DNA of 51,540 nucleotides from sequence record ON711395.1; one strand, 5' to 3'. The stretch is from Escherichia phage brachmannus. Below, one piece after another: positions 26 to 42,713 of this stretch (positions within the stretch are counted from its first letter, which is position 1; each line of letters starts with the position of its first letter). The notes under the pieces are model-generated. The model was given only the letters and a program-made list of their open reading frames with translations, had not been told where the DNA came from and ran no database searches. A program made the position numbers and the translations under genes.

Positions 26-553
26 ATGGCTAAAAATGTTGAGCCTGCTGTAAAGGCATTAAATTTCAAAGAGTTATACAATAAAACTTATGGCGATATT
101 GTCACGCTAAATAACCGCCACAAGTACACGCCGGAACAGGTTTTTGATATGGCGATCCGCTATTTCACTTGGGCCGAAGAGAATCACATCCAGGCGGCTG
201 AAACTGCTTCCTTTCAGGGTGACGTGTACGAGAGCAGAGTTTACAAGCCTCGCGTTTTCACGGTTAACGGATTCAGCTTGTATCTCGGCGTTACTGAGGC
301 TGCCGTAAGCAAATGGCGTAAAGAGCCTGGATTCTGCGATGTGATGGAGTTTGTTGATAAAGTAATTTACGAGCAAAAATTCCAGCTTGCGGCAAATAAC
401 ATGATTAATGCTGGATTCATCGGTAAAGAGATCGGAGTAGATAAGCCAGCAACAGTGAGCGTTGAAGCGAGCGCGGCAGCTAATGCAAGCATTGACGCAG
501 TAACTGCCGATGAGGTGAAAGAGGCTGTGGTTGATATTCTGGAGCAACTTTAA
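26..553 (+). CDS. terS: terminase small subunit (putative)
   Basis: 175-aa ORF, RBS AGGAGG upstream of ATG 26, stop overlaps start of large terminase (ATGA); size and position typical of TerS. Confidence 0.6.
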   Translation: MAKNVEPAVKALNFKELYNKTYGDIVTLNNRHKYTPEQVFDMAIRYFTWAEENHIQAAETASFQGDVYESRVYKPRVFTVNGFSLYLGVTEAAVSKWRKEPGFCDVMEFVDKVIYEQKFQLAANNMINAGFIGKEIGVDKPATVSVEASAAANASIDAVTADEVKEAVVDILEQL

Positions 554-2121
554 TGATCATATGGGAAGATTTGACGGCGGCGCAAAAGCGAGCCATTAAA
601 GAAATCAGTGAGCATTCATTCGAAAAGATGATCAGAATCTGGTTCCAGTTATTGCAGGGGCAAAAATTCCAGAGTAACTGGCATTTTAGCTTATTGTGCA
701 GTGAGGTAGAGAAGATCATCAATGGAGAGTCGCAGAATGTGATTTTCAATATTACGCCAGGTAGCGGTAAGACTGAGATTTTCTCGATCCACATGTCACC
801 CTACGCGTCATTGAAAAGCCGGAAGGTGAGAAATCTTAACCTTTCGTTTAGTGATGGCCTTGTCCAGCAAAACAGCAACCGGATAAAGGAGATTATTGGT
901 TCTCCTGAGTGGCAAGAGCTATGGCCAGGAAAACTGGCAAAGGCGAGCGCTAAAGATCTGATAGTCACCGAAGGCGGCAAGGTTAAATTGCAAGTTAACT
1001 CACGTTCTATTGGCGGCCAGGTAACAGGTTTGCGTGGCGGCTATATGGACGATGGTTTTACTGGTATGCTGGTTCTTGACGATCCAGACAAGCCGGATGA
1101 TATGCTTTCTAAGGTAAAGCGTGAGGCTATCCACATGCGGTTAAAAAACACAGTGCGATCGCGTCGAATGAAAGACACAACTCCGATTGTTATGGTGCAA
1201 CAGCGACTACACGTTAATGATTCCACCTGGTTTATGCTTAATGGCGGGATGGGTGGTATTGAGTTTAAAGTCGTGAGCATTCCGGCTCTGGTTACGAAAG
1301 AATACCGCGAAACGCTTCCTGATTGGTTGAAGCCTGAATTTGATCGTGATGTGCTATCAAGTAAGCCAGTGATGATAGATGGCGTTGCTCATTATTCATT
1401 TTGGCCTGCAAAGGAAAGCGCGGAGGAATTGCTTGCATTGCGCAATGCAGATCCTTACACGTTCGCCAGCCAATACCAACAGCAACCAATCGCGCTGGGC
1501 GGGAACGTGTTTAAAACAGAGTGGTTCCAGTATTACGGCAGCGGCGAAAAATGCGCACTACCAAAACCTGATCGCTTTGAATACACATTTATTACTGGAG
1601 ATACCGCGCAGAAGGCCGGAGAGCTTAACGACTATTCAGTTTTTTGTTATTGGGGGATGTATAAGAATCGCGTTTACTTCATTGATGGCATTCGCGGAAA
1701 GTGGGAAGCGCCGGATCTTGAATTAAATTTTATTGCCTTCGTTAACCAGTGCTGGAAGCGCAATAAGGAGTGTGGCAGCTTGCGACGTATCCACATTGAG
1801 GATAAGGCCAGCGGCACGGGTTTGATTCAGGGGGCCAAAAAGAAGATCCCGATTGATATAAATCCCGTTCAGCGAAGCAATGACAAGGTGACGCGAGCAA
1901 TGGACGCCGCGCCAGTAATGAGGGCCGGACGTGTGGCACTGCCAGAAAATCACCCCATGCTGCCTGAGATACTAGCAGAGGTTGCAGCATTCACTTTTGA
2001 TGATTCTCATCCCCATGATGATATTGTCGATAATATAGTTGATGCTGTTAACGTCGAAATGAATTTGGCAGATGATCCGGTAGCAAGGATGAAAAAGCTG
2101 GCAGGTCTACGCAATAAATAG
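553..2121 (+). CDS. terL: terminase large subunit
   Basis: 522 aa; Walker A-like TPGSGKTE, Walker B-like LVLDDPD, C-terminal nuclease-like region; followed by hairpin+T-run. Confidence 0.9.
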   Translation: MIIWEDLTAAQKRAIKEISEHSFEKMIRIWFQLLQGQKFQSNWHFSLLCSEVEKIINGESQNVIFNITPGSGKTEIFSIHMSPYASLKSRKVRNLNLSFSDGLVQQNSNRIKEIIGSPEWQELWPGKLAKASAKDLIVTEGGKVKLQVNSRSIGGQVTGLRGGYMDDGFTGMLVLDDPDKPDDMLSKVKREAIHMRLKNTVRSRRMKDTTPIVMVQQRLHVNDSTWFMLNGGMGGIEFKVVSIPALVTKEYRETLPDWLKPEFDRDVLSSKPVMIDGVAHYSFWPAKESAEELLALRNADPYTFASQYQQQPIALGGNVFKTEWFQYYGSGEKCALPKPDRFEYTFITGDTAQKAGELNDYSVFCYWGMYKNRVYFIDGIRGKWEAPDLELNFIAFVNQCWKRNKECGSLRRIHIEDKASGTGLIQGAKKKIPIDINPVQRSNDKVTRAMDAAPVMRAGRVALPENHPMLPEILAEVAAFTFDDSHPHDDIVDNIVDAVNVEMNLADDPVARMKKLAGLRNK

Positions 2122-16367: not shown

Positions 16368-16386
16368 TAGCACAATATGTTAAAGC
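16368..16386 (+). promoter_or_regulatory. conserved motif variant TAGCACAATATGTTAAAGC + 8-bp hairpin + TACAAT upstream of HNH gene
   Basis: same cassette architecture as early-gene copies. Confidence 0.5.
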
Positions 16387-16427
16387 GAAAACGGATTTTC
16401 GCTTTACAATTAATTAAGGAGATGATC

Positions 16428-16904
16428 ATGTGGCGTGATATTTTTTATTATAATGACGGTAAGTTATTTTGGGCTGTAGACGTAGGAAGAAGGATAAAGA
16501 AAGGAAGTGAGGCAGGAAGCGTAAGCAAAAGCAAGAAGAGTGGAGAAAGGGTTAGAATATCAATTGATGGAGAAAGATACTACAGGAGCAGGATAGTTTG
16601 GGAAATTCATAATGGAGAAATACCGCATGGAATGCAAGTTGATCACATAGATCACAACACAATGAACGACAATATTTCAAACTTAAGACTTGTTAGAATG
16701 AGTGTTAACAACAAGAATAAGTCGCTTTACAGGAACAGCAAGACGGGAATTACTGGGGTAAACTTTAGTCGCGGAAAATGGATTGCAAGAGCAAAGATTG
16801 ATGGTGTTAGGCATGAATTTTACTTTGATTCATTTCAGGATGCGGCAGAAAAGAGGATAGAGATTGAAGTTTTAAACAAATTCCACATAAACCACGGAAA
16901 GTAG
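16428..16904 (+). CDS. HNH homing endonuclease with AP2-like DNA-binding domain
   Basis: HNH motif VDHIDHN...NLRL; AT-rich with AGA/AGG arginine codons unlike surrounding genes; inserted between tail genes I and J; paralog at 35773-36246. Confidence 0.8.
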   Translation: MWRDIFYYNDGKLFWAVDVGRRIKKGSEAGSVSKSKKSGERVRISIDGERYYRSRIVWEIHNGEIPHGMQVDHIDHNTMNDNISNLRLVRMSVNNKNKSLYRNSKTGITGVNFSRGKWIARAKIDGVRHEFYFDSFQDAAEKRIEIEVLNKFHINHGK

Positions 16905-16907
16905 ATT

Positions 16908-16933
16908 TAACCAGCATTGCGCTGGTTTTTTTG
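16908..16933 (+). terminator. intrinsic terminator after HNH gene
   Basis: AACCAGC-ATTGC-GCTGGTT then T7. Confidence 0.65.
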
Positions 16934-16981
16934 TGCATTTATAATGAGCAAACCAATAAACAGCACAAAAGGTTAAAAGTC

Positions 16982-21482: not shown

Positions 21483-21750
21483 TTTTGCACCTCAAATCAA
21501 TGAATTTTCTTTCATCTTGCCAACGGTTGATAAATTTAACTTCTTTATTGTCAACGCTCAACCTGTATTGCTTTTGGCTGAATCTGTTTTCGCGGACAGC
21601 ATTAATTTTAACTTCATGGAATCCGTTAACAGGGAATGTTTTAACGTTAAATTTTGCCGTGCAATCGATCTCCTTGAAGTTGCCAGTAGGCGAAGAAGAA
21701 CATCCGGTCAGAGCGGCTACGGTGGCGATAACTGCGATTAATTTTTTCAT
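21475..21750 (-). CDS. lipoprotein, candidate Cor/Llp-like superinfection exclusion protein
   Basis: signal peptide with lipobox LTGC; AAGGAG RBS; small size; located next to tail fibre genes with own promoter region. Confidence 0.45.
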   Translation of the reverse strand: MKKLIAVIATVAALTGCSSSPTGNFKEIDCTAKFNVKTFPVNGFHEVKINAVRENRFSQKQYRLSVDNKEVKFINRWQDERKFIDLRCKNG

Positions 21751-21806
21751 CTTCAATACTCCTTAGTTGTTGTTGGCTGTAACTATACACGATCCGACAA
21801 GCTGAG

Positions 21807-21823
21807 TTTAGCAAAAAGTGCTA
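21807..21823 (-). promoter_or_regulatory. conserved motif variant + TATAGT upstream of lipoprotein gene (minus strand)
   Basis: minus strand reads TAGCACTTTTTGCTAAAC, TATAGT 21 bp after TTGCTA. Confidence 0.55.
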
Positions 21824-22193
21824 CTTGTTATTTTTTGTTTTCCAGTGTTATCGAATTTAAGACGGCGCAAATTTGGCGCAAATTTTAACCAACACAAGAG
21901 CAATAAACAACCAATAAAATAGATATATGCATATAAAATCAATAGTTTATTTATTTATGTATGTATATTTGTTTTTTCTTGTTATCTGTGTTTCTTGTGG
22001 TTTTGGTTGTTTGTGGTGATTTTTCTTTCTGAGTATCTGCATGTGCCATCATTCATGTGTATGTATATAATCCGGCGTATCTGAGAGAACAAGGGAACAA
22101 GAAAAATAACACATGTTAATCATTAACTTACGTGTCAGATTTGTTTTCTTGCCATCTGAGAACGTTTAGAAAACAGAAAAAACAAAACAACTA

Positions 22194-22221
22194 TTGACTA
22201 AATCAACCAAATGGCTACAAT
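22194..22221 (+). promoter_or_regulatory. sigma70-like promoter TTGACT-16-TACAAT upstream of recombination module
   Basis: near-consensus hexamers about 30 nt upstream of GAGGAG RBS of 22252 gene. Confidence 0.6.
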
Positions 22222-35197: not shown

Positions 35198-35589
35198 TGA
35201 AGAAATTTTTAATCGCACCAATCGCAATGGCGGTGATCTTGTCTGGATGTTCAAGCGTTACGCCACTGACCGGATTAATCGGCAGTAAGCCGGAAATCAC
35301 AGCACAGGCTGGCGCGGAGAACGTGAAGCAGACAGTCGGCATTACAGCAAAGCAGGACACTAGCACAAAACAGGAAACCACAATAAAGGAATCTGCGGTT
35401 GATAAGGTGGACACGTCCAGCAAGAAGGATTTCACAACATCAACCATTCAGGCCAATACCATCAAGGCAGACAAAATTCAGGTCGTGCAGGGTAATAACG
35501 GCAGATGGTACGATCCAATAATCATATGCGTGGTTGTGTTCATTGTGCTGATTTGTCTTTACTGGAGGGAAAAGAAAAAGGAGGCTTAA
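35194..35589 (+). CDS. unimolecular spanin (u-spanin, T1 gp11-like)
   Basis: N-terminal lipoprotein signal with lipobox LSGC plus C-terminal transmembrane helix; start overlaps endolysin stop. Confidence 0.7.
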
Positions 35590-35603
35590 TGCCTCCTTTG
35601 TTA
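35574..35603. terminator. bidirectional terminator after lysis cassette
   Basis: AGGAGGC-TTAAT-GCCTCCT with flanking A and T tracts. Confidence 0.6.
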
Positions 35604-35783
35604 TTCGATACGCTTTACAGTAACCAACAAAACGCCGTCTTCATCACACAAATTATGCTCTGATATATCAAACGCTCGCATGTCAGAATGAATGAGCGTT
35701 AACATTGCGTGCATGAAGTCGTCATGTGAGATTTGAGAAGTGGCGCAAAATTTAAGAATTTCATCTATCAGTTTACTTTCCAT
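35601..35783 (-). CDS. hypothetical protein
   Basis: about 60 aa from internal ATG (MESKLIDE...). Confidence 0.35.
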   Translation of the reverse strand: MESKLIDEILKFCATSQISHDDFMHAMLTLIHSDMRAFDISEHNLCDEDGVLLVTVKRIE

Positions 35784-36246
35784 GATTTTTGTGGTAGCCA
35801 AATTTAACCTCCGCCTGTTCCCTTGCCTTAATTGCATCATCAAGACTTAAAAAATATCCTAAATGCACGCTCTTACCGTTATCATATATAGTTGCGTGCC
35901 ATCTTTTGTTTTTCTTATTCCAGCAAACACCAACTCGACCAGAGTTATTTCTTTTTAGTAGAGATACGTTTTTGCTGTTATCTAATCTTGATGCAAGCCT
36001 TAGATTTTCAATTCTGTTATCGCTCCTATTGTGCCATATATGGTCTATTTCCATTCCTTCTGGTATTTTTCCATTGTGCATTTCCCATATTATCCTATGC
36101 GCCAAAAACAATACACCATTATACCTTATTCTCACATATCCATTTTCACATACACATCCCGCAACGCTTCCAGGCTTTGCTTTCCCTCTTCTGTTTCTCC
36201 ATCTCAATATTCCATTGTCATATATAAATACTTCATTCCAATCCAT
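35773..36246 (-). CDS. HNH homing endonuclease with AP2-like domain (paralog of 16428-16904)
   Basis: EIDHIWHN...NLRL HNH motif; AT-rich, AGA/AGG codons; similar to first HNH gene. Confidence 0.8.
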   Translation of the reverse strand: MDWNEVFIYDNGILRWRNRRGKAKPGSVAGCVCENGYVRIRYNGVLFLAHRIIWEMHNGKIPEGMEIDHIWHNRSDNRIENLRLASRLDNSKNVSLLKRNNSGRVGVCWNKKNKRWHATIYDNGKSVHLGYFLSLDDAIKAREQAEVKFGYHKNHGK

Positions 36247-36628
36247 ATCTTTTCCTTAGAGCTTTTATTTGTTGTCTATTAGCTTTTGCCTGGAACAATT
36301 CATCATCGCCCATCTCCCCTATTCTCGCCATATCCCTGATCCAGTCGTTGCGCATACCATCCAGGCTATACAATTCGAATCCGAAAGGCCGCTTTGACGA
36401 TCCTTTGGACCAGTATTTACCGCAGACCCCATCTATATAGCCAGCCGTCATCATTCTTGCGCAAAATTCCTTAGATGTAAGGCTGGCGAACATTCGCGGC
36501 GTAAGTCCGGCGGCCCGTGCGAGCCGCTCGCATTCTCTATGCTGATAGATAAATTTGGCTATGTGCTGCCTGTTAAACCAGTCGTATGACTCACACCATT
36601 TATACAGATCAAGCAAAAACATAATCAT
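36233..36628 (-). CDS. hypothetical protein
   Basis: 131-aa ORF, overlapping neighbours. Confidence 0.45.
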   Translation of the reverse strand: MIMFLLDLYKWCESYDWFNRQHIAKFIYQHRECERLARAAGLTPRMFASLTSKEFCARMMTAGYIDGVCGKYWSKGSSKRPFGFELYSLDGMRNDWIRDMARIGEMGDDELFQAKANRQQIKALRKRYGLE

Positions 36629-38205
36629 CCCAGCAGTATTGGATTGACAAAAATAACACCATTAATCACGCAAACATAATTTCTTTCTTCCAGCATTGGC
36701 AGCAAGTGCCCCTCTATCCTCTTCATTACGCCAGCCTGACCAACGAAAGGTTTTACCTTTCTCGCTGATTCGTACAGGGCGCGAATATTCAGAATCCCTT
36801 TATTAGCCTTGCCGTGTCTAGTGATCAATTCAATCAATTTGCCCATTTCAGCATCATCACCAGCATAACCAGAAGCATTGGCGGCGCTAATGTATGTTTT
36901 GCTCAATTCCTGAAACATGATCAACGCCTCTTGCATTGTTTCCACGTCGATCTCTTTCGACTTCTGCGGGTATCCAGCAGGATTAAACCAGTTGCGGATA
37001 ACATGCAGGACGGAAGCAAGCCTGATCACCTGTTTATCCATTTTACCCAGCGCGCCGCGTAACATTGTATGAGAATACTTTCCGCCGTCTGCAAGATGCG
37101 GTTCCATATCCTGGCGAGCAATGTTGAGCACTCGCATAGCTGAACGGCTTATTTTCAGCGATATATTTGATTCGCTCATGATGTTATGCACCAATTGATA
37201 ATATTGGGCCTTCAATTCAGGATCCACCGCCTCATAGGTAGAATCACCATTTTCATCAATGAATGAGCGACGGCCTAAGAATGATCCCTCTCGGACCAAC
37301 AAAAAACGCTCACTAACACCGATGCCTCGCGATCCAGCGTCCATGATTCCGCTTATCGTTTCATCCTGGGCTATGACGCTCATACATCCAAGCGCGCGAA
37401 AACTCATATTATTGTCAGCATTAGCACGGGCAATTGATACGTGACCATTATCCCACGCCTTAAGCACTAACTCACTGTTAGTCTTCCTTTCGCTATTTGC
37501 ATAGGTCAAGCCTAACAGACTGTTAATACTTGTTGCTTCATCAGATATTACGGCAAAGTTACCTTGCTTGTTGTTGATTTTCGCCAAGCCTTCTGGAGTT
37601 GTATCTGAAACAGGAAAAGTTATATCACACATTTTTTCCAGCTTTTCCTCCAGATCCTCTTTTTCCTGGTATAGAGATTCCATATCAGCGCCGGATCTTT
37701 CGCTTTTCATCTCCTTTGCAAGACCTGCCAACTTTGCCTGTATTTTCTTTCTTTCCTTGCGGCGTTGCTCGTTGATCTTCTCAACTTCCGCAATCATCGG
37801 AGCAATAGCCATACTGTTGATTGCAGATTTACCAGTTGACGGCGGTTGGCTTGTAACGACGTAAAGCGCAGTCGGCTGATCGGTTCCGTGATAGTCAACC
37901 GTAAAGCGTCCAAGCATAGCGGCAGAAATGCAGCCGATAAAGTGCATGTAAGCCGATGATTCAGGGAATTGAACGGATCGCGCAATGCTGCGTGATAGCT
38001 TGCCGACAACATCAATATCATTACCAAGAGAAATAACGGGGTAGCGATCGTGGCCGCTATTTACATCCTTCACGTCGCCCCAAAAGCTGGACGACTGGCG
38101 ATAGCCGTTAGCCTGAATTGATACGCGAACTGGTGAAAGGTTCTGGCTTTCAGCCATAGCGATTATTTGCTGTGGAGTTAATTTGTTCGTTTCTAATGAA
38201 AACAT
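36625..38205 (-). CDS. P-loop ATPase, possible replication-associated helicase-like protein
   Basis: 526 aa; Walker A-like QPPSTGKSA and Walker B-like AVISDEATS. Confidence 0.4.
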   Translation of the reverse strand: MFSLETNKLTPQQIIAMAESQNLSPVRVSIQANGYRQSSSFWGDVKDVNSGHDRYPVISLGNDIDVVGKLSRSIARSVQFPESSAYMHFIGCISAAMLGRFTVDYHGTDQPTALYVVTSQPPSTGKSAINSMAIAPMIAEVEKINEQRRKERKKIQAKLAGLAKEMKSERSGADMESLYQEKEDLEEKLEKMCDITFPVSDTTPEGLAKINNKQGNFAVISDEATSINSLLGLTYANSERKTNSELVLKAWDNGHVSIARANADNNMSFRALGCMSVIAQDETISGIMDAGSRGIGVSERFLLVREGSFLGRRSFIDENGDSTYEAVDPELKAQYYQLVHNIMSESNISLKISRSAMRVLNIARQDMEPHLADGGKYSHTMLRGALGKMDKQVIRLASVLHVIRNWFNPAGYPQKSKEIDVETMQEALIMFQELSKTYISAANASGYAGDDAEMGKLIELITRHGKANKGILNIRALYESARKVKPFVGQAGVMKRIEGHLLPMLEERNYVCVINGVIFVNPILLG

Positions 38206-40384: not shown

Positions 40385-40597
40385 TCATTTATTATTTTTC
40401 ATCTTAAATTTATGGCCTGGAACACCAGCACCAATATAGCCATCGTTGTATCCCATTAAATAAAGGCGAAGGCCATTATCTGAAATTACATGAGGATATT
40501 CTTTGAGATTTCCCATTAGCGGGTATTCTTTTCCGCGCGTAAATCTCCAAGTTGAGTCATAAGTTTCTACGCATTTAAGTTTTAATTGCTTTGCCAT
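40385..40597 (-). CDS. hypothetical protein
   Basis: 70 aa; TAATG overlap with upstream gene. Confidence 0.45.
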   Translation of the reverse strand: MAKQLKLKCVETYDSTWRFTRGKEYPLMGNLKEYPHVISDNGLRLYLMGYNDGYIGAGVPGHKFKMKNNK

Positions 40598-42173: not shown

Positions 42174-42713
42174 TTTGACGGTTAGCACCAGGATTGTGAT
42201 CGAAATAATCAAAAGTAATCATTCGTAATCAAATCACGTCAAAATGATGATTGCCTTTGCAAATTTGATGAGAAAAGTAATCACGTTTAATCATTGGTTG
42301 CAGGGGAGATAGTGAAACCTTCCCCTCTTGCCTCACTTTTCCGCCCGGCTGTCAGTGGTTGTTATGTTCCGTTCCCGCCTGTTCTTTTGTTGACCTTCCG
42401 CAAAATACGATAACAAAAAATAACAAACAGTACCTATATAATACATTGAAAAATAAGTATTATTTATTTATATGTATCTATATATTCTCTTTTGTTATCT
42501 TGGTTATTGTGGTATTTGGTGGGGTATATAGTTTTTGTGTATCTGTATGTGTGTATGGGTATGTAGGGGGCATATATATCTATATGGCACTTTCCGCGAG
42601 AAAACTTCGATAACAGGCAATGATAACATTGATTTATAAGGAAAAATAACGCCCATATTGTTATTGTGCCACCATATAAAATTGATAAAACACGCGGGAA
42701 CAAGAAAAAACAG

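What the first reader, a model, noticed from the sequence alone, without database searches (positions are those of the whole stretch)
35773..36246. Second, paralogous HNH-AP2 endonuclease beside the lysis cassette
A second HNH-AP2 gene on the minus strand is clearly related to the first (IVWEIHNGEIPHGMQVDHIDHN versus IIWEMHNGKIPEGMEIDHIWHN) and has the same AT-rich codon usage. Two copies in one genome suggest active homing or intragenomic spread.
Basis: seen in the sequence. Interest (0 to 1): 0.45.

Follow-up and report, generated by a model that had tools for sequence, protein, structure and literature searches.

The report
Free-standing HNH-AP2 homing endonuclease gene
This is an ordinary selfish "homing endonuclease" gene in a T1-like coliphage; it is already annotated in a sister phage, and its one unusual feature is that it sits inside the overlap of two phage genes and carries rewritten spare ends for both.

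Summary

The window is a Warwickvirus (Drexlerviridae), about 96% identical to phage tonnikala, which encodes the identical, already annotated protein.

Homing is supported by comparison only:
- The gene is absent from most Warwickviruses; roughly 5% of ydbL-bearing contigs are occupied.
- Its orthologues (60-100% identity) always sit at the same junction, between ydbL and a small ORF.
- dS against Fulano1 is 0.34 for the gene, but 1.3-1.8 for the flanking genes.
- dN/dS is 0.15-0.24.
- An 850-bp mismatch-free tract shared with tonnikala spans the cassette.
- The downstream flank is Hanrivervirus-like (97.5% versus 68% identity).

Intragenomic spread is not supported. The two copies are only 37-39% identical, share no flanking sequence, and segregate independently.

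The new detail is the insertion anatomy. The cassette splits the overlap between ydbL and the small ORF and supplies a recoded end for each gene.

Verdict: ordinary mobile element, low to moderate interest.

The parts
35773..36246 (-). HNH-AP2 endonuclease gene ('HNH2'), 157 aa, identical to tonnikala YP_009901152.1
   Evidence: ORF. Pfam HNH_3 at 8.4e-22. phrog_99 at 2.4e-67. Exact-sequence look-up.
35962..36246 (-). Residues 1-95: I-HmuI-like N-terminal beta-sheet DNA-contact region plus the HNH (beta-beta-alpha-metal) nuclease core, with D68, H69, N81 and N90
35797..35949 (-). Residues about 100-150: AP2-type DNA-binding domain (three-stranded sheet plus helix)
36233..36271 (-). Left arm of the cassette: a recoded replacement for the last 12 codons and stop of ydbL (QIKALRKRYGLE*). 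It contains the AAGGA ribosome-binding site (36253..36257) and the start codon of the HNH gene, so the two genes overlap by 14 nt.
   Evidence: Alignments with empty alleles. YdbL C-termini fall into two discrete classes, and the ...GLE class is always followed by the HNH gene.
35722..35783 (-). Right arm of the cassette: a new start (ATG 35781..35783, overlapping the HNH stop as ATGGAAAGTAA) and a recoded 5' end of the small ORF (MESKLIDEILKFCATSQISH). It contains the displaced, now frame-broken old ydbL tail, with a relic TGA at 35722..35724.
   Evidence: Three-frame translations of the empty segment and of the left and right segments; alignment A2.
35601..35783 (-). Small ORF (60 aa, phrog_9539, function unknown). 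In empty alleles it is 64 aa and starts inside ydbL. Here its 3' 121 bp are Hanrivervirus-like, that is, a co-converted flank.
   Evidence: phrog_9539 at 2e-23, residues 4-59 matching profile positions 8-63 of 64. 97.5% identity to Henu8 and Fulano1 versus 68% to SECphi27.
36233..36628 (-). ydbL (phrog_2794, function unknown), the upstream host gene whose 3' end receives the insertion. Warwickvirus-type up to 36272.
36265..36306 (-). Relic of the original small-ORF start inside ydbL (GGGGAG ribosome-binding site, ATGATG...). It now stops after 13 codons (MMNCSRQKLIDNK*).
   Evidence: Sequence read. The full-length equivalent is seen in SECphi27 and Henu8.
35577..35599 (-). Intrinsic terminator ending the helicase-ydbL-HNH-small ORF operon. 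It lies between this operon and the convergent lysis cassette and marks the right-hand edge of the recombinant patch.
   Evidence: identity profile.
35569..36418 (.). 850-bp tract with no mismatch to tonnikala. It spans the cassette plus about 30 bp on one side and about 145 bp on the other, and is the second-longest such tract in genomes that otherwise differ by about 3-4%.
16377..16904 (+). The 'first' HNH-AP2 paralogue (HNH1), part of a clean 542-bp insertion (16368..16909) between tail genes I and J. Its real start is probably the ATG at 16428.

Best explanation
The gene is a free-standing (not intron- or intein-borne) homing endonuclease gene of the HNH-AP2 type, resident at one specific site of T1-like phages.

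Inferred mechanism:
- During mixed infection with a relative that lacks the gene, the enzyme nicks or cuts the 'empty' allele at or near the ydbL/small-ORF overlap. The I-HmuI-like HNH core does the cutting. The AP2 domain and the N-terminal sheet read the DNA.
- The break is repaired from the occupied genome. This copies the roughly 670-bp cassette and some flanking sequence into the recipient.

Shown directly by sequence:
- In empty alleles, ydbL and a 64-codon small ORF overlap in two reading frames.
- In occupied alleles, the endonuclease gene lies inside that overlap. The overlapping segment is present twice, recoded each time. The upstream copy keeps only the ydbL frame and provides the endonuclease's ribosome-binding site and start codon. 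The downstream copy keeps only the small-ORF frame and starts on the endonuclease's stop codon.
- All three genes therefore stay translatable in one operon. The occupied allele no longer contains the intact target sequence.

History of this copy: the window's lineage, a Warwickvirus, acquired the cassette together with a Hanrivervirus-type downstream flank. In doing so it lost the 74-codon gene that other Warwickviruses carry there.
For: Protein identity:
- Pfam HNH_3 at 77 bits.
- A family profile matches I-HmuI at E 5.8e-7 with the catalytic D, H, N and N residues aligned.
- AlphaFold2 pLDDT 94.

Free-standing: no Rfam intron anywhere in the window, and a separate ORF that overlaps its neighbours.

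Sporadic distribution:
- Only tonnikala among about 60 records at 95-99% identity carries it.
- About 5% of Warwickvirus-type ydbL contigs have the HNH-linked tail.

Site specificity: the same junction is used in tonnikala, Fulano1, BEK7, A16a and the metagenomic loci L014-L017, L019, L021 and L022.

Horizontal movement:
- dS between window and Fulano1 is 0.34 for the HNH gene, against 1.30 for ydbL and 1.84 for the endolysin.
- The window is SECphi27-like outside 35600..36279 and Hanrivervirus-like inside.
- An 850-bp mismatch-free tract is shared with tonnikala.

Still under selection: dN/dS is 0.15-0.24.

Anatomy of the recoded arms.

Published precedent: free-standing endonuclease genes that overlap the upstream gene and co-convert flanks are described for T4 (PMC2988022). 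HNH-AP2 is a named class in T4-like phages (PMC2993671, Table 5).
Against: - No cleavage, nicking or preferential-inheritance data exist for this protein or any close relative. The target site is inferred only from the insertion point. Characterised free-standing endonucleases often cut hundreds of bases away from their gene (PMC2988022).
- General homologous recombination between co-infecting phages could also produce the mosaic patch and the identical tract. A longer mismatch-free tract (1297 bp) exists elsewhere in the genome.
- The Pfam AP2 score is below the gathering threshold.
- Some alleles are truncated (BEK7 128 aa; P0220; P0221), so not all copies need be active.
Confidence: 0.82

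Rival explanations
1. The gene is a passenger. It was once an endonuclease but is now catalytically or functionally inert, and it spreads only because ordinary homologous recombination shuffles this part of T1-like genomes.
For: - Mosaicism is common in these phages. Another mismatch-free tract of 1297 bp is shared with tonnikala elsewhere in the genome.
- Truncated copies exist.
- A16a has a 3-residue deletion inside the HNH motif.
Against: - dN/dS of 0.15-0.24 over dS up to 1.1 shows sustained purifying selection on the protein.
- All four catalytic positions are kept.
- The 157-aa length is kept in two lineages that are only 60% identical.
Confidence: 0.1
2. The gene is kept because it benefits the phage. 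This need not exclude homing. It could exclude competing relatives by cutting their genomes, or blunt a host defence, as reported for another I-HmuI-like phage endonuclease.
For: - bas24_0090, an I-HmuI-like HNH endonuclease from a BASEL coliphage, attenuates GAPS4 defence even as a catalytic mutant, and it inhibits related phages (bioRxiv 10.1101/2025.09.07.674715).
- The gene is under purifying selection.
- Translation of the small ORF is now coupled to it.
Against: - It is present in only about 5% of relatives, which is not what a generally useful gene would show.
- No relationship to bas24_0090 was tested here.
- No link to any defence system was tested or seen.
Confidence: 0.2
3. The second copy arose by recent duplication or transposition of the first copy within this genome.
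For: Both belong to phrog_99, share the same two-domain fold, and are low in GC.
Against: - Identity is only 37-39%.
- All 60 sampled database homologues are closer to HNH2 than HNH1 is.
- The flanks share no similarity.
- Each copy has near-identical orthologues at its own site in other phages, and the two occur independently.
Confidence: 0.01

Closest known systems
I-HmuI (PDB 1u3e), the HNH endonuclease encoded in a group I intron of Bacillus phage SPO1
   Different: I-HmuI is intron-encoded, and its C-terminal DNA-binding part is made of helices plus a helix-turn-helix (from my own knowledge of the 1u3e structure paper). Here the gene is free-standing and the C-terminal module is an AP2 domain. 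I-HmuI is a strand-specific nickase (own knowledge). Whether this enzyme nicks or cuts both strands is unknown.
HNH-AP2 putative homing endonucleases of T4-related phages (RB49, RB43, RB16, JSE) and of cyanobacteria and ciliates
   Same: The same two-domain combination. It is listed as a separate endonuclease-gene category in PMC2993671, Table 5, which cites Magnani et al. 2004 and Wuitschick et al. 2004.
   Different: The host phage family is different (Drexlerviridae). No direct sequence comparison with those proteins was made here.
Free-standing endonucleases of T4 (seg and mob genes, for example mobE, segF, segG)
   Same: - Sits between host genes.
- Its start overlaps the upstream gene, which suggests translational coupling.
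- Sporadic among relatives.
- Moves with co-conversion of flanks ('intronless homing') (PMC2988022).
   Different: The T4 genes sit in intergenic spaces (PMC2988022). This one sits inside a two-frame gene overlap and carries recoded substitute ends for both genes. I did not find that arrangement described in the papers I read.
HNH genes next to the lysis cassette of Drexlerviridae (Eremina et al. 2026, PMC13164509)
   Same: That paper mapped HNH nuclease genes near the lysis cassette and found them sporadic (25 of 522 genomes). It suggested a homing role.
   Different: The example described there (T1) lies on the other side of the cassette, between the exonuclease and the holin, next to an SH3 gene. 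The ydbL/small-ORF site and its anatomy are not discussed in the passages I read.
Integrating elements that restore the 3' end of the gene they insert into (for example, phages that integrate into tRNA genes or into icd)
   Same: The mobile DNA brings a substitute, partly synonymous copy of the gene end it displaces (own knowledge; offered as an analogy only).
   Different: Those elements use integrases and att sites. Here the vehicle is an endonuclease gene that moves by recombinational repair, and two overlapping gene ends are replaced rather than one.

Membership tests
HNH_3 / I-HmuI-like HNH nucleases (PF13392) | Sequence match to the family model above the curated threshold | tested here: met
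   77 bits against a cut-off of 24.8, E 8.4e-22, residues 48-91. phrog_99 'HNH endonuclease' at 2.4e-67.
HNH_3 / I-HmuI-like HNH nucleases (PF13392) | Catalytic and metal-binding residues (I-HmuI D74, H75, N87, N96) | tested here: met
   They align with D68, H69, N81 and N90. D68 and H69 are invariant and N81 and N90 nearly invariant across 62 homologues.
HNH_3 / I-HmuI-like HNH nucleases (PF13392) | Beta-beta-alpha-metal fold | tested here: met
HNH_3 / I-HmuI-like HNH nucleases (PF13392) | Metal-dependent DNA nicking or cleavage | not testable with these tools
   Needs purified protein.
AP2 DNA-binding domain (PF00847) | Sequence match above Pfam's gathering score | tested here: not met
   22.3 bits against a cut-off of 33.3, E 1.6e-4, residues 103-132. 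Profile against PDB: WRI1 AP2 at E 0.002 and TEM1 at E 0.045. Some homologues do carry a precomputed PF00847 hit.
AP2 DNA-binding domain (PF00847) | Three-stranded antiparallel sheet packed on one helix | tested here: met
AP2 DNA-binding domain (PF00847) | Sequence-specific DNA binding | not testable with these tools
   Needs binding assays.
Free-standing homing endonuclease gene | Not inside an intron or intein; an ORF of its own between host genes | tested here: met
   No Rfam family in the window. Separate ORF overlapping ydbL by 14 nt and the small ORF by 11 nt.
Free-standing homing endonuclease gene | Presence/absence polymorphism among close relatives | tested here: met
Free-standing homing endonuclease gene | Same insertion site in different genomic backgrounds | tested here: met
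   Found in Warwickvirus and Hanrivervirus backbones and in metagenomic contigs, always as helicase-ydbL-HNH-small ORF.
Free-standing homing endonuclease gene | Element less diverged than its flanks, with co-converted flanking sequence | tested here: met
   dS 0.34 against 1.30 and 1.84. Downstream flank 97.5% Hanrivervirus-like against 68% Warwickvirus-like. 850-bp identical tract.
Free-standing homing endonuclease gene | The enzyme cuts the empty allele and is preferentially inherited in mixed infection | not testable with these tools
   Needs in-vitro cleavage mapping and phage crosses.

The most novel reading that the evidence does not exclude
The endonuclease gene has become structurally entrenched. 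It sits inside a two-frame gene overlap and supplies the only intact 3' end of ydbL. It also supplies the only translatable start of the small ORF, which has no ribosome-binding site of its own and starts on the endonuclease's stop codon. As a result, simple deletion or decay of the element would damage two phage genes. The element could then be lost only by recombination with an empty allele. This would be a way for a selfish endonuclease gene to escape the usual cycle of invasion, decay and loss. It would also be a natural case of a mobile element resolving an overlapping gene pair into two separate genes.
Probability: 0.3. Interest if true: 0.5.

Novelty: new member of a known kind. Interest (0 to 1): 0.27.

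Why it matters
In itself it matters little. HNH-AP2 genes are abundant in phages (3556 phage records match at E <= 1e-5), and this exact protein is already annotated in tonnikala.

Three things make the locus a convenient experimental system:
- Empty and occupied alleles, and two endonuclease lineages only 60% identical, exist in easily grown K-12 coliphages. Homing, marker exclusion between Warwickvirus and Hanrivervirus, and target recognition by a bacterial-virus AP2 domain could all be tested directly.
- The recoded duplicate gene ends show how a selfish gene can enter a coding overlap without harming the host.
- Recent work attributes fitness effects to such phage endonucleases: interference competition and attenuation of a host defence (10.1101/2025.09.07.674715), and amplification of anti-defence genes (PMC13096335, abstract only).

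Tried and rejected
- **Third paralogue.** phmmer of both proteins against all ORFs of the window found none.
- **Shared flanks or target between the two copies.** Only 68 bp of HNH-motif coding sequence match.
- **Single-sequence search of PDB.** Nothing significant. The family profile was needed.
- **NCBIfam.** No hit for either HNH protein or for YdbL.
- **Junction-specific 35-mer scans.** They found only the 2019SD1 record in viral contigs and nothing in metagenome contigs. The viral-contig protein scan added nothing new. The protein-cluster route was more productive.
- **Introns and tRNAs as possible hosts or targets.** No Rfam family and no tRNA in the window.
- **'The left arm is just the ydbL end of a donor lineage whose genes do not overlap.'** Rejected. 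All HNH-less YdbL proteins from all genera end ...ALR(R/K/S)KF(N/G)xx. The ...RKRYGLE and ...RRRHGLE tails occur only next to the endonuclease gene, and their last four codons are dictated by its MDWN start.
- **'The empty allele is a deletion product of the occupied one.'** Rejected. The right-hand copy has stops in the ydbL frame, and the empty form is the one shared by all genera.
- **Packaging-associated HNH.** Not pursued. The gene is far from the terminase genes (26..2121) and is not conserved among relatives.
- **Shigella phage 2019SD1 partial copy.** Residues 15-114, in an 'UNVERIFIED_ASMBLY' record with odd strand layout. Not interpreted.

Full report
**Observation.** The 'first' copy is the ORF at 16377..16904 (+). 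BLASTP between the two gives 39% identity over 160 columns, E = 9e-31. phmmer against every ORF of the window of at least 40 aa finds these two and no third. Both genes are low-GC islands: 36.3% and 36.9% against 44.5% for the window, the third and fourth lowest of all 474-bp windows.

**What genome this is.** The region is 98.4% identical to Escherichia phage tonnikala (Drexlerviridae, Tempevirinae, Warwickvirus) and about 98% identical to some 60 other Warwickvirus records. Over the whole genome the window is about 96% identical to tonnikala, so it is a different isolate. Local gene order is exonuclease, holin, endolysin and spanin on the plus strand. These converge on helicase (DUF3987), ydbL, the HNH gene and a small ORF on the minus strand. 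A terminator at 35577..35599 lies between the two sets. No promoter-like site precedes the HNH gene, so it is probably read as part of the helicase operon (inference).

**What the protein is.**
- Pfam HNH_3 scores 77 bits against a cut-off of 24.8. AP2 scores 22.3 bits, below its cut-off of 33.3.
- A 62-sequence alignment gave an AlphaFold2 model with mean pLDDT 94.
- The family profile finds I-HmuI by sequence (E 5.8e-7) from residue 1. I-HmuI D74, H75, N87 and N96 fall on D68, H69, N81 and N90, which are invariant or nearly so in the family.

'HNH-AP2' is therefore right for both genes. It is a recognised class of putative homing endonucleases in T4-like phages (PMC2993671, Table 5). No Rfam intron or any other RNA family occurs in the window, so both genes are free-standing.

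**Distribution.**
- In the phage collection, the 3.9-kb region is fully matched only in tonnikala. About 100 other records cover 83% of it, with the gap at the HNH gene.
- Orthologues occur at the same place in the Hanriverviruses Fulano1 (87% aa identity), BEK7, BEK12B, BEK1-23 and BEC3 (84%, with a 1-nt deletion giving a 128-aa product), and in A15a and A16a (60%).
- Metagenomic contigs that encode proteins 80-94% identical show the same order, helicase-ydbL-HNH-(small ORF)-spanin-lysozyme-holin.
- Two lineages share the site. Type A comprises the window, tonnikala, L021 and Fulano1 (87-100% identical). Type B comprises A16a and L019 (about 60% identical to type A).

**Anatomy of the insertion.** This is the most informative result.
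- In empty alleles (SECphi27, Henu8, grams), ydbL ends ...ANRQ(N/D)(I/L)E(V/A)LRRKFN(L/I)T*. A small ORF (phrog_9539, 64 profile positions) starts inside ydbL in another frame, behind a GGAG-type ribosome-binding site (MKNCLRQMLIDKILKFCAVSSISHDD...). The two genes overlap by about 75 nt.
- In occupied alleles the endonuclease gene lies inside this overlap, and the overlapping segment is present twice.
- The upstream copy (36233..36271) keeps only the ydbL frame (QIKALRKRYGLE*). It is recoded so that it contains AAGGA and the endonuclease's ATG. The final GLE* of YdbL is dictated by the codons for MDWN.
- The downstream copy (35722..35783) keeps only the small-ORF frame (MESKLIDEILKFCATSQISHDD). 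It has stops in the old ydbL frame, and it begins at an ATG that overlaps the endonuclease's stop codon (ATGGAAAGTAA).
- A 13-codon stump of the old small-ORF start remains inside ydbL (36265..36306).
- Among 88 YdbL homologues the C-termini fall into two discrete classes. The ancestral ...LRRKFNxx type is found in all genera. The ...RKRYGLE type (P0121-P0129 and P0183; about 32 contigs) and the ...RRRHGLE type (P0176) are always followed by a 157-aa HNH_3 gene where checked.
- By contig counts, about 5% of Warwickvirus-type ydbL genes are occupied (my sum; rough).

**Evidence of movement.**
- Outside 35600..36279 the window tracks SECphi27 at 93-100% per 40-bp window. Inside that interval it tracks Fulano1.
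- The 121 bp of small ORF downstream of the cassette are 97.5% identical to Hanrivervirus alleles but only 68% identical to SECphi27.
- The 74-codon gene (phrog_27210) that SECphi27 and grams carry there is missing. Contig L019, which has a Warwickvirus-type YdbL, has the endonuclease and still carries another small (73-codon) gene after the small ORF. So the loss looks like a co-conversion accident of this lineage, not a requirement.
- Between window and Fulano1, synonymous divergence is 0.34 in the endonuclease gene, against 1.30 in ydbL and 1.84 in the endolysin.
- Between window and tonnikala, which differ at about 3-4% of sites, an 850-bp tract (35569..36418) spanning the cassette has no mismatch. 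It is the second-longest such tract in the genome.
- dN/dS is 0.15-0.24 in four comparisons, so the protein is kept functional.

All of this is what intronless homing with co-conversion predicts (PMC2988022). None of it is a direct demonstration, and ordinary recombination could mimic parts of it.

**Relation between the two copies.**
- HNH1 is a clean 542-bp insertion (16368..16909) between tail genes I and J, replacing 5 bp of tonnikala sequence.
- It is present in atuna, JLBYU10, mar001J1, JLBYU01, Phunderstruck, Kalemo and orkinos. It is partial in tonn and ityhuna, and absent from most relatives, including tonnikala.
- It is 36-38% identical to every junction-type HNH examined and more distant from HNH2 than any of 60 sampled database homologues. 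The flanks share nothing.

The two genes are old paralogues that came and go independently. There is no sign of spread within this genome.

**Mechanism.**
- Shown: domain make-up, intact catalytic residues, site, recoded arms, sporadic distribution and recombinant patch.
- Inferred: the enzyme nicks or cuts empty alleles at or near the ydbL/small-ORF overlap, and repair from the occupied genome copies the cassette and its flanks. The occupied allele is immune because the site is split and recoded. The endonuclease is translated from its own ribosome-binding site embedded in the recoded ydbL tail, and the small ORF is translated by re-initiation after the endonuclease.
- Unknown: the actual cut site (free-standing enzymes can cut far from their gene; PMC2988022), whether the enzyme makes a nick or a double-strand break, and whether the gene has any benefit to the phage.

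**Comparison and novelty.**
- The exact protein is already in GenBank as 'HNH endonuclease' of tonnikala, YP_009901152.1.
- Sporadic HNH genes near the Drexlerviridae lysis cassette have been noted (25 of 522 genomes; PMC13164509).
- The kind of element is well known. I did not find in the papers I read either the placement inside a two-frame overlap or the substitute ends for both genes. That placement suggests the element may be hard to lose by simple deletion, but this is speculative.
- Overall this is a new member of a known kind, of low to moderate interest.

Noticed in passing
window 16377..16904 (+), especially 16416..16430: The first HNH-AP2 ORF probably starts at the ATG at 16428 (MWRDIFYYNDG..., 158 aa), not at 16377. 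An AAGGAG ribosome-binding site lies 6 nt upstream of 16428. The 17 extra N-terminal residues have low model confidence and no counterpart in homologues.
   Followed up: partly
L003 2261..2734 (Fulano1 gp51); L008 1721..2233 (pSf-1 gp17); L021 and L022 1484..1996. Corresponds to window about 36625..36630.: The helicase/ydbL junction is a second hot spot for HNH genes of the same family (45-53% identical to HNH2). It is empty in the window, where the two genes overlap by 4 nt. Some phages carry endonuclease genes on both sides of ydbL.
   Followed up: partly
L014 2501..2974 (protein P0004): This orthologue looks chimeric. Its first roughly 30 residues match the type-B lineage (A16a-like) and the rest matches type A (Fulano1-like), which suggests recombination between endonuclease alleles at the shared site.
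   Followed up: no
L004 1488..1874 (BEK7 and three sister records); proteins P0220 and P0221; L009 (A16a): There are signs of decay in some copies. The BEK phages have a 1-nt deletion in an A-run, giving a 128-aa product without an intact AP2 domain. The same 90% cluster contains 121- and 132-aa members. A16a has a 3-residue deletion inside the HNH motif. Sequencing error was not excluded.
   Followed up: partly
L002 2706..2930 (SECphi27 gp09, 74 aa, phrog_27210); absent from window around 35600: A small gene of unknown function that most Warwickviruses carry between the small ORF and the terminator is missing from the window and from tonnikala. It was apparently lost when the cassette arrived with a Hanrivervirus-type flank.
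   Followed up: partly
window 21738..22211 and 42192..42665: These are the two lowest-GC stretches of the window (31% and 34%), lower than either HNH gene. Their content was not examined.
   Followed up: no
window 16905..16945 versus tonnikala (L010) 40538..40580: The terminator hairpin after tail gene I has a different stem sequence in the HNH1-bearing window (ACCAGCATTGCGCTGGT) than in HNH1-less tonnikala (ACCCGCCTTGCGCGGGT). It may be a co-converted flank of HNH1.
   Followed up: no
whole window: The window contains no tRNA gene and no Rfam family at gathering threshold.
   Followed up: yes
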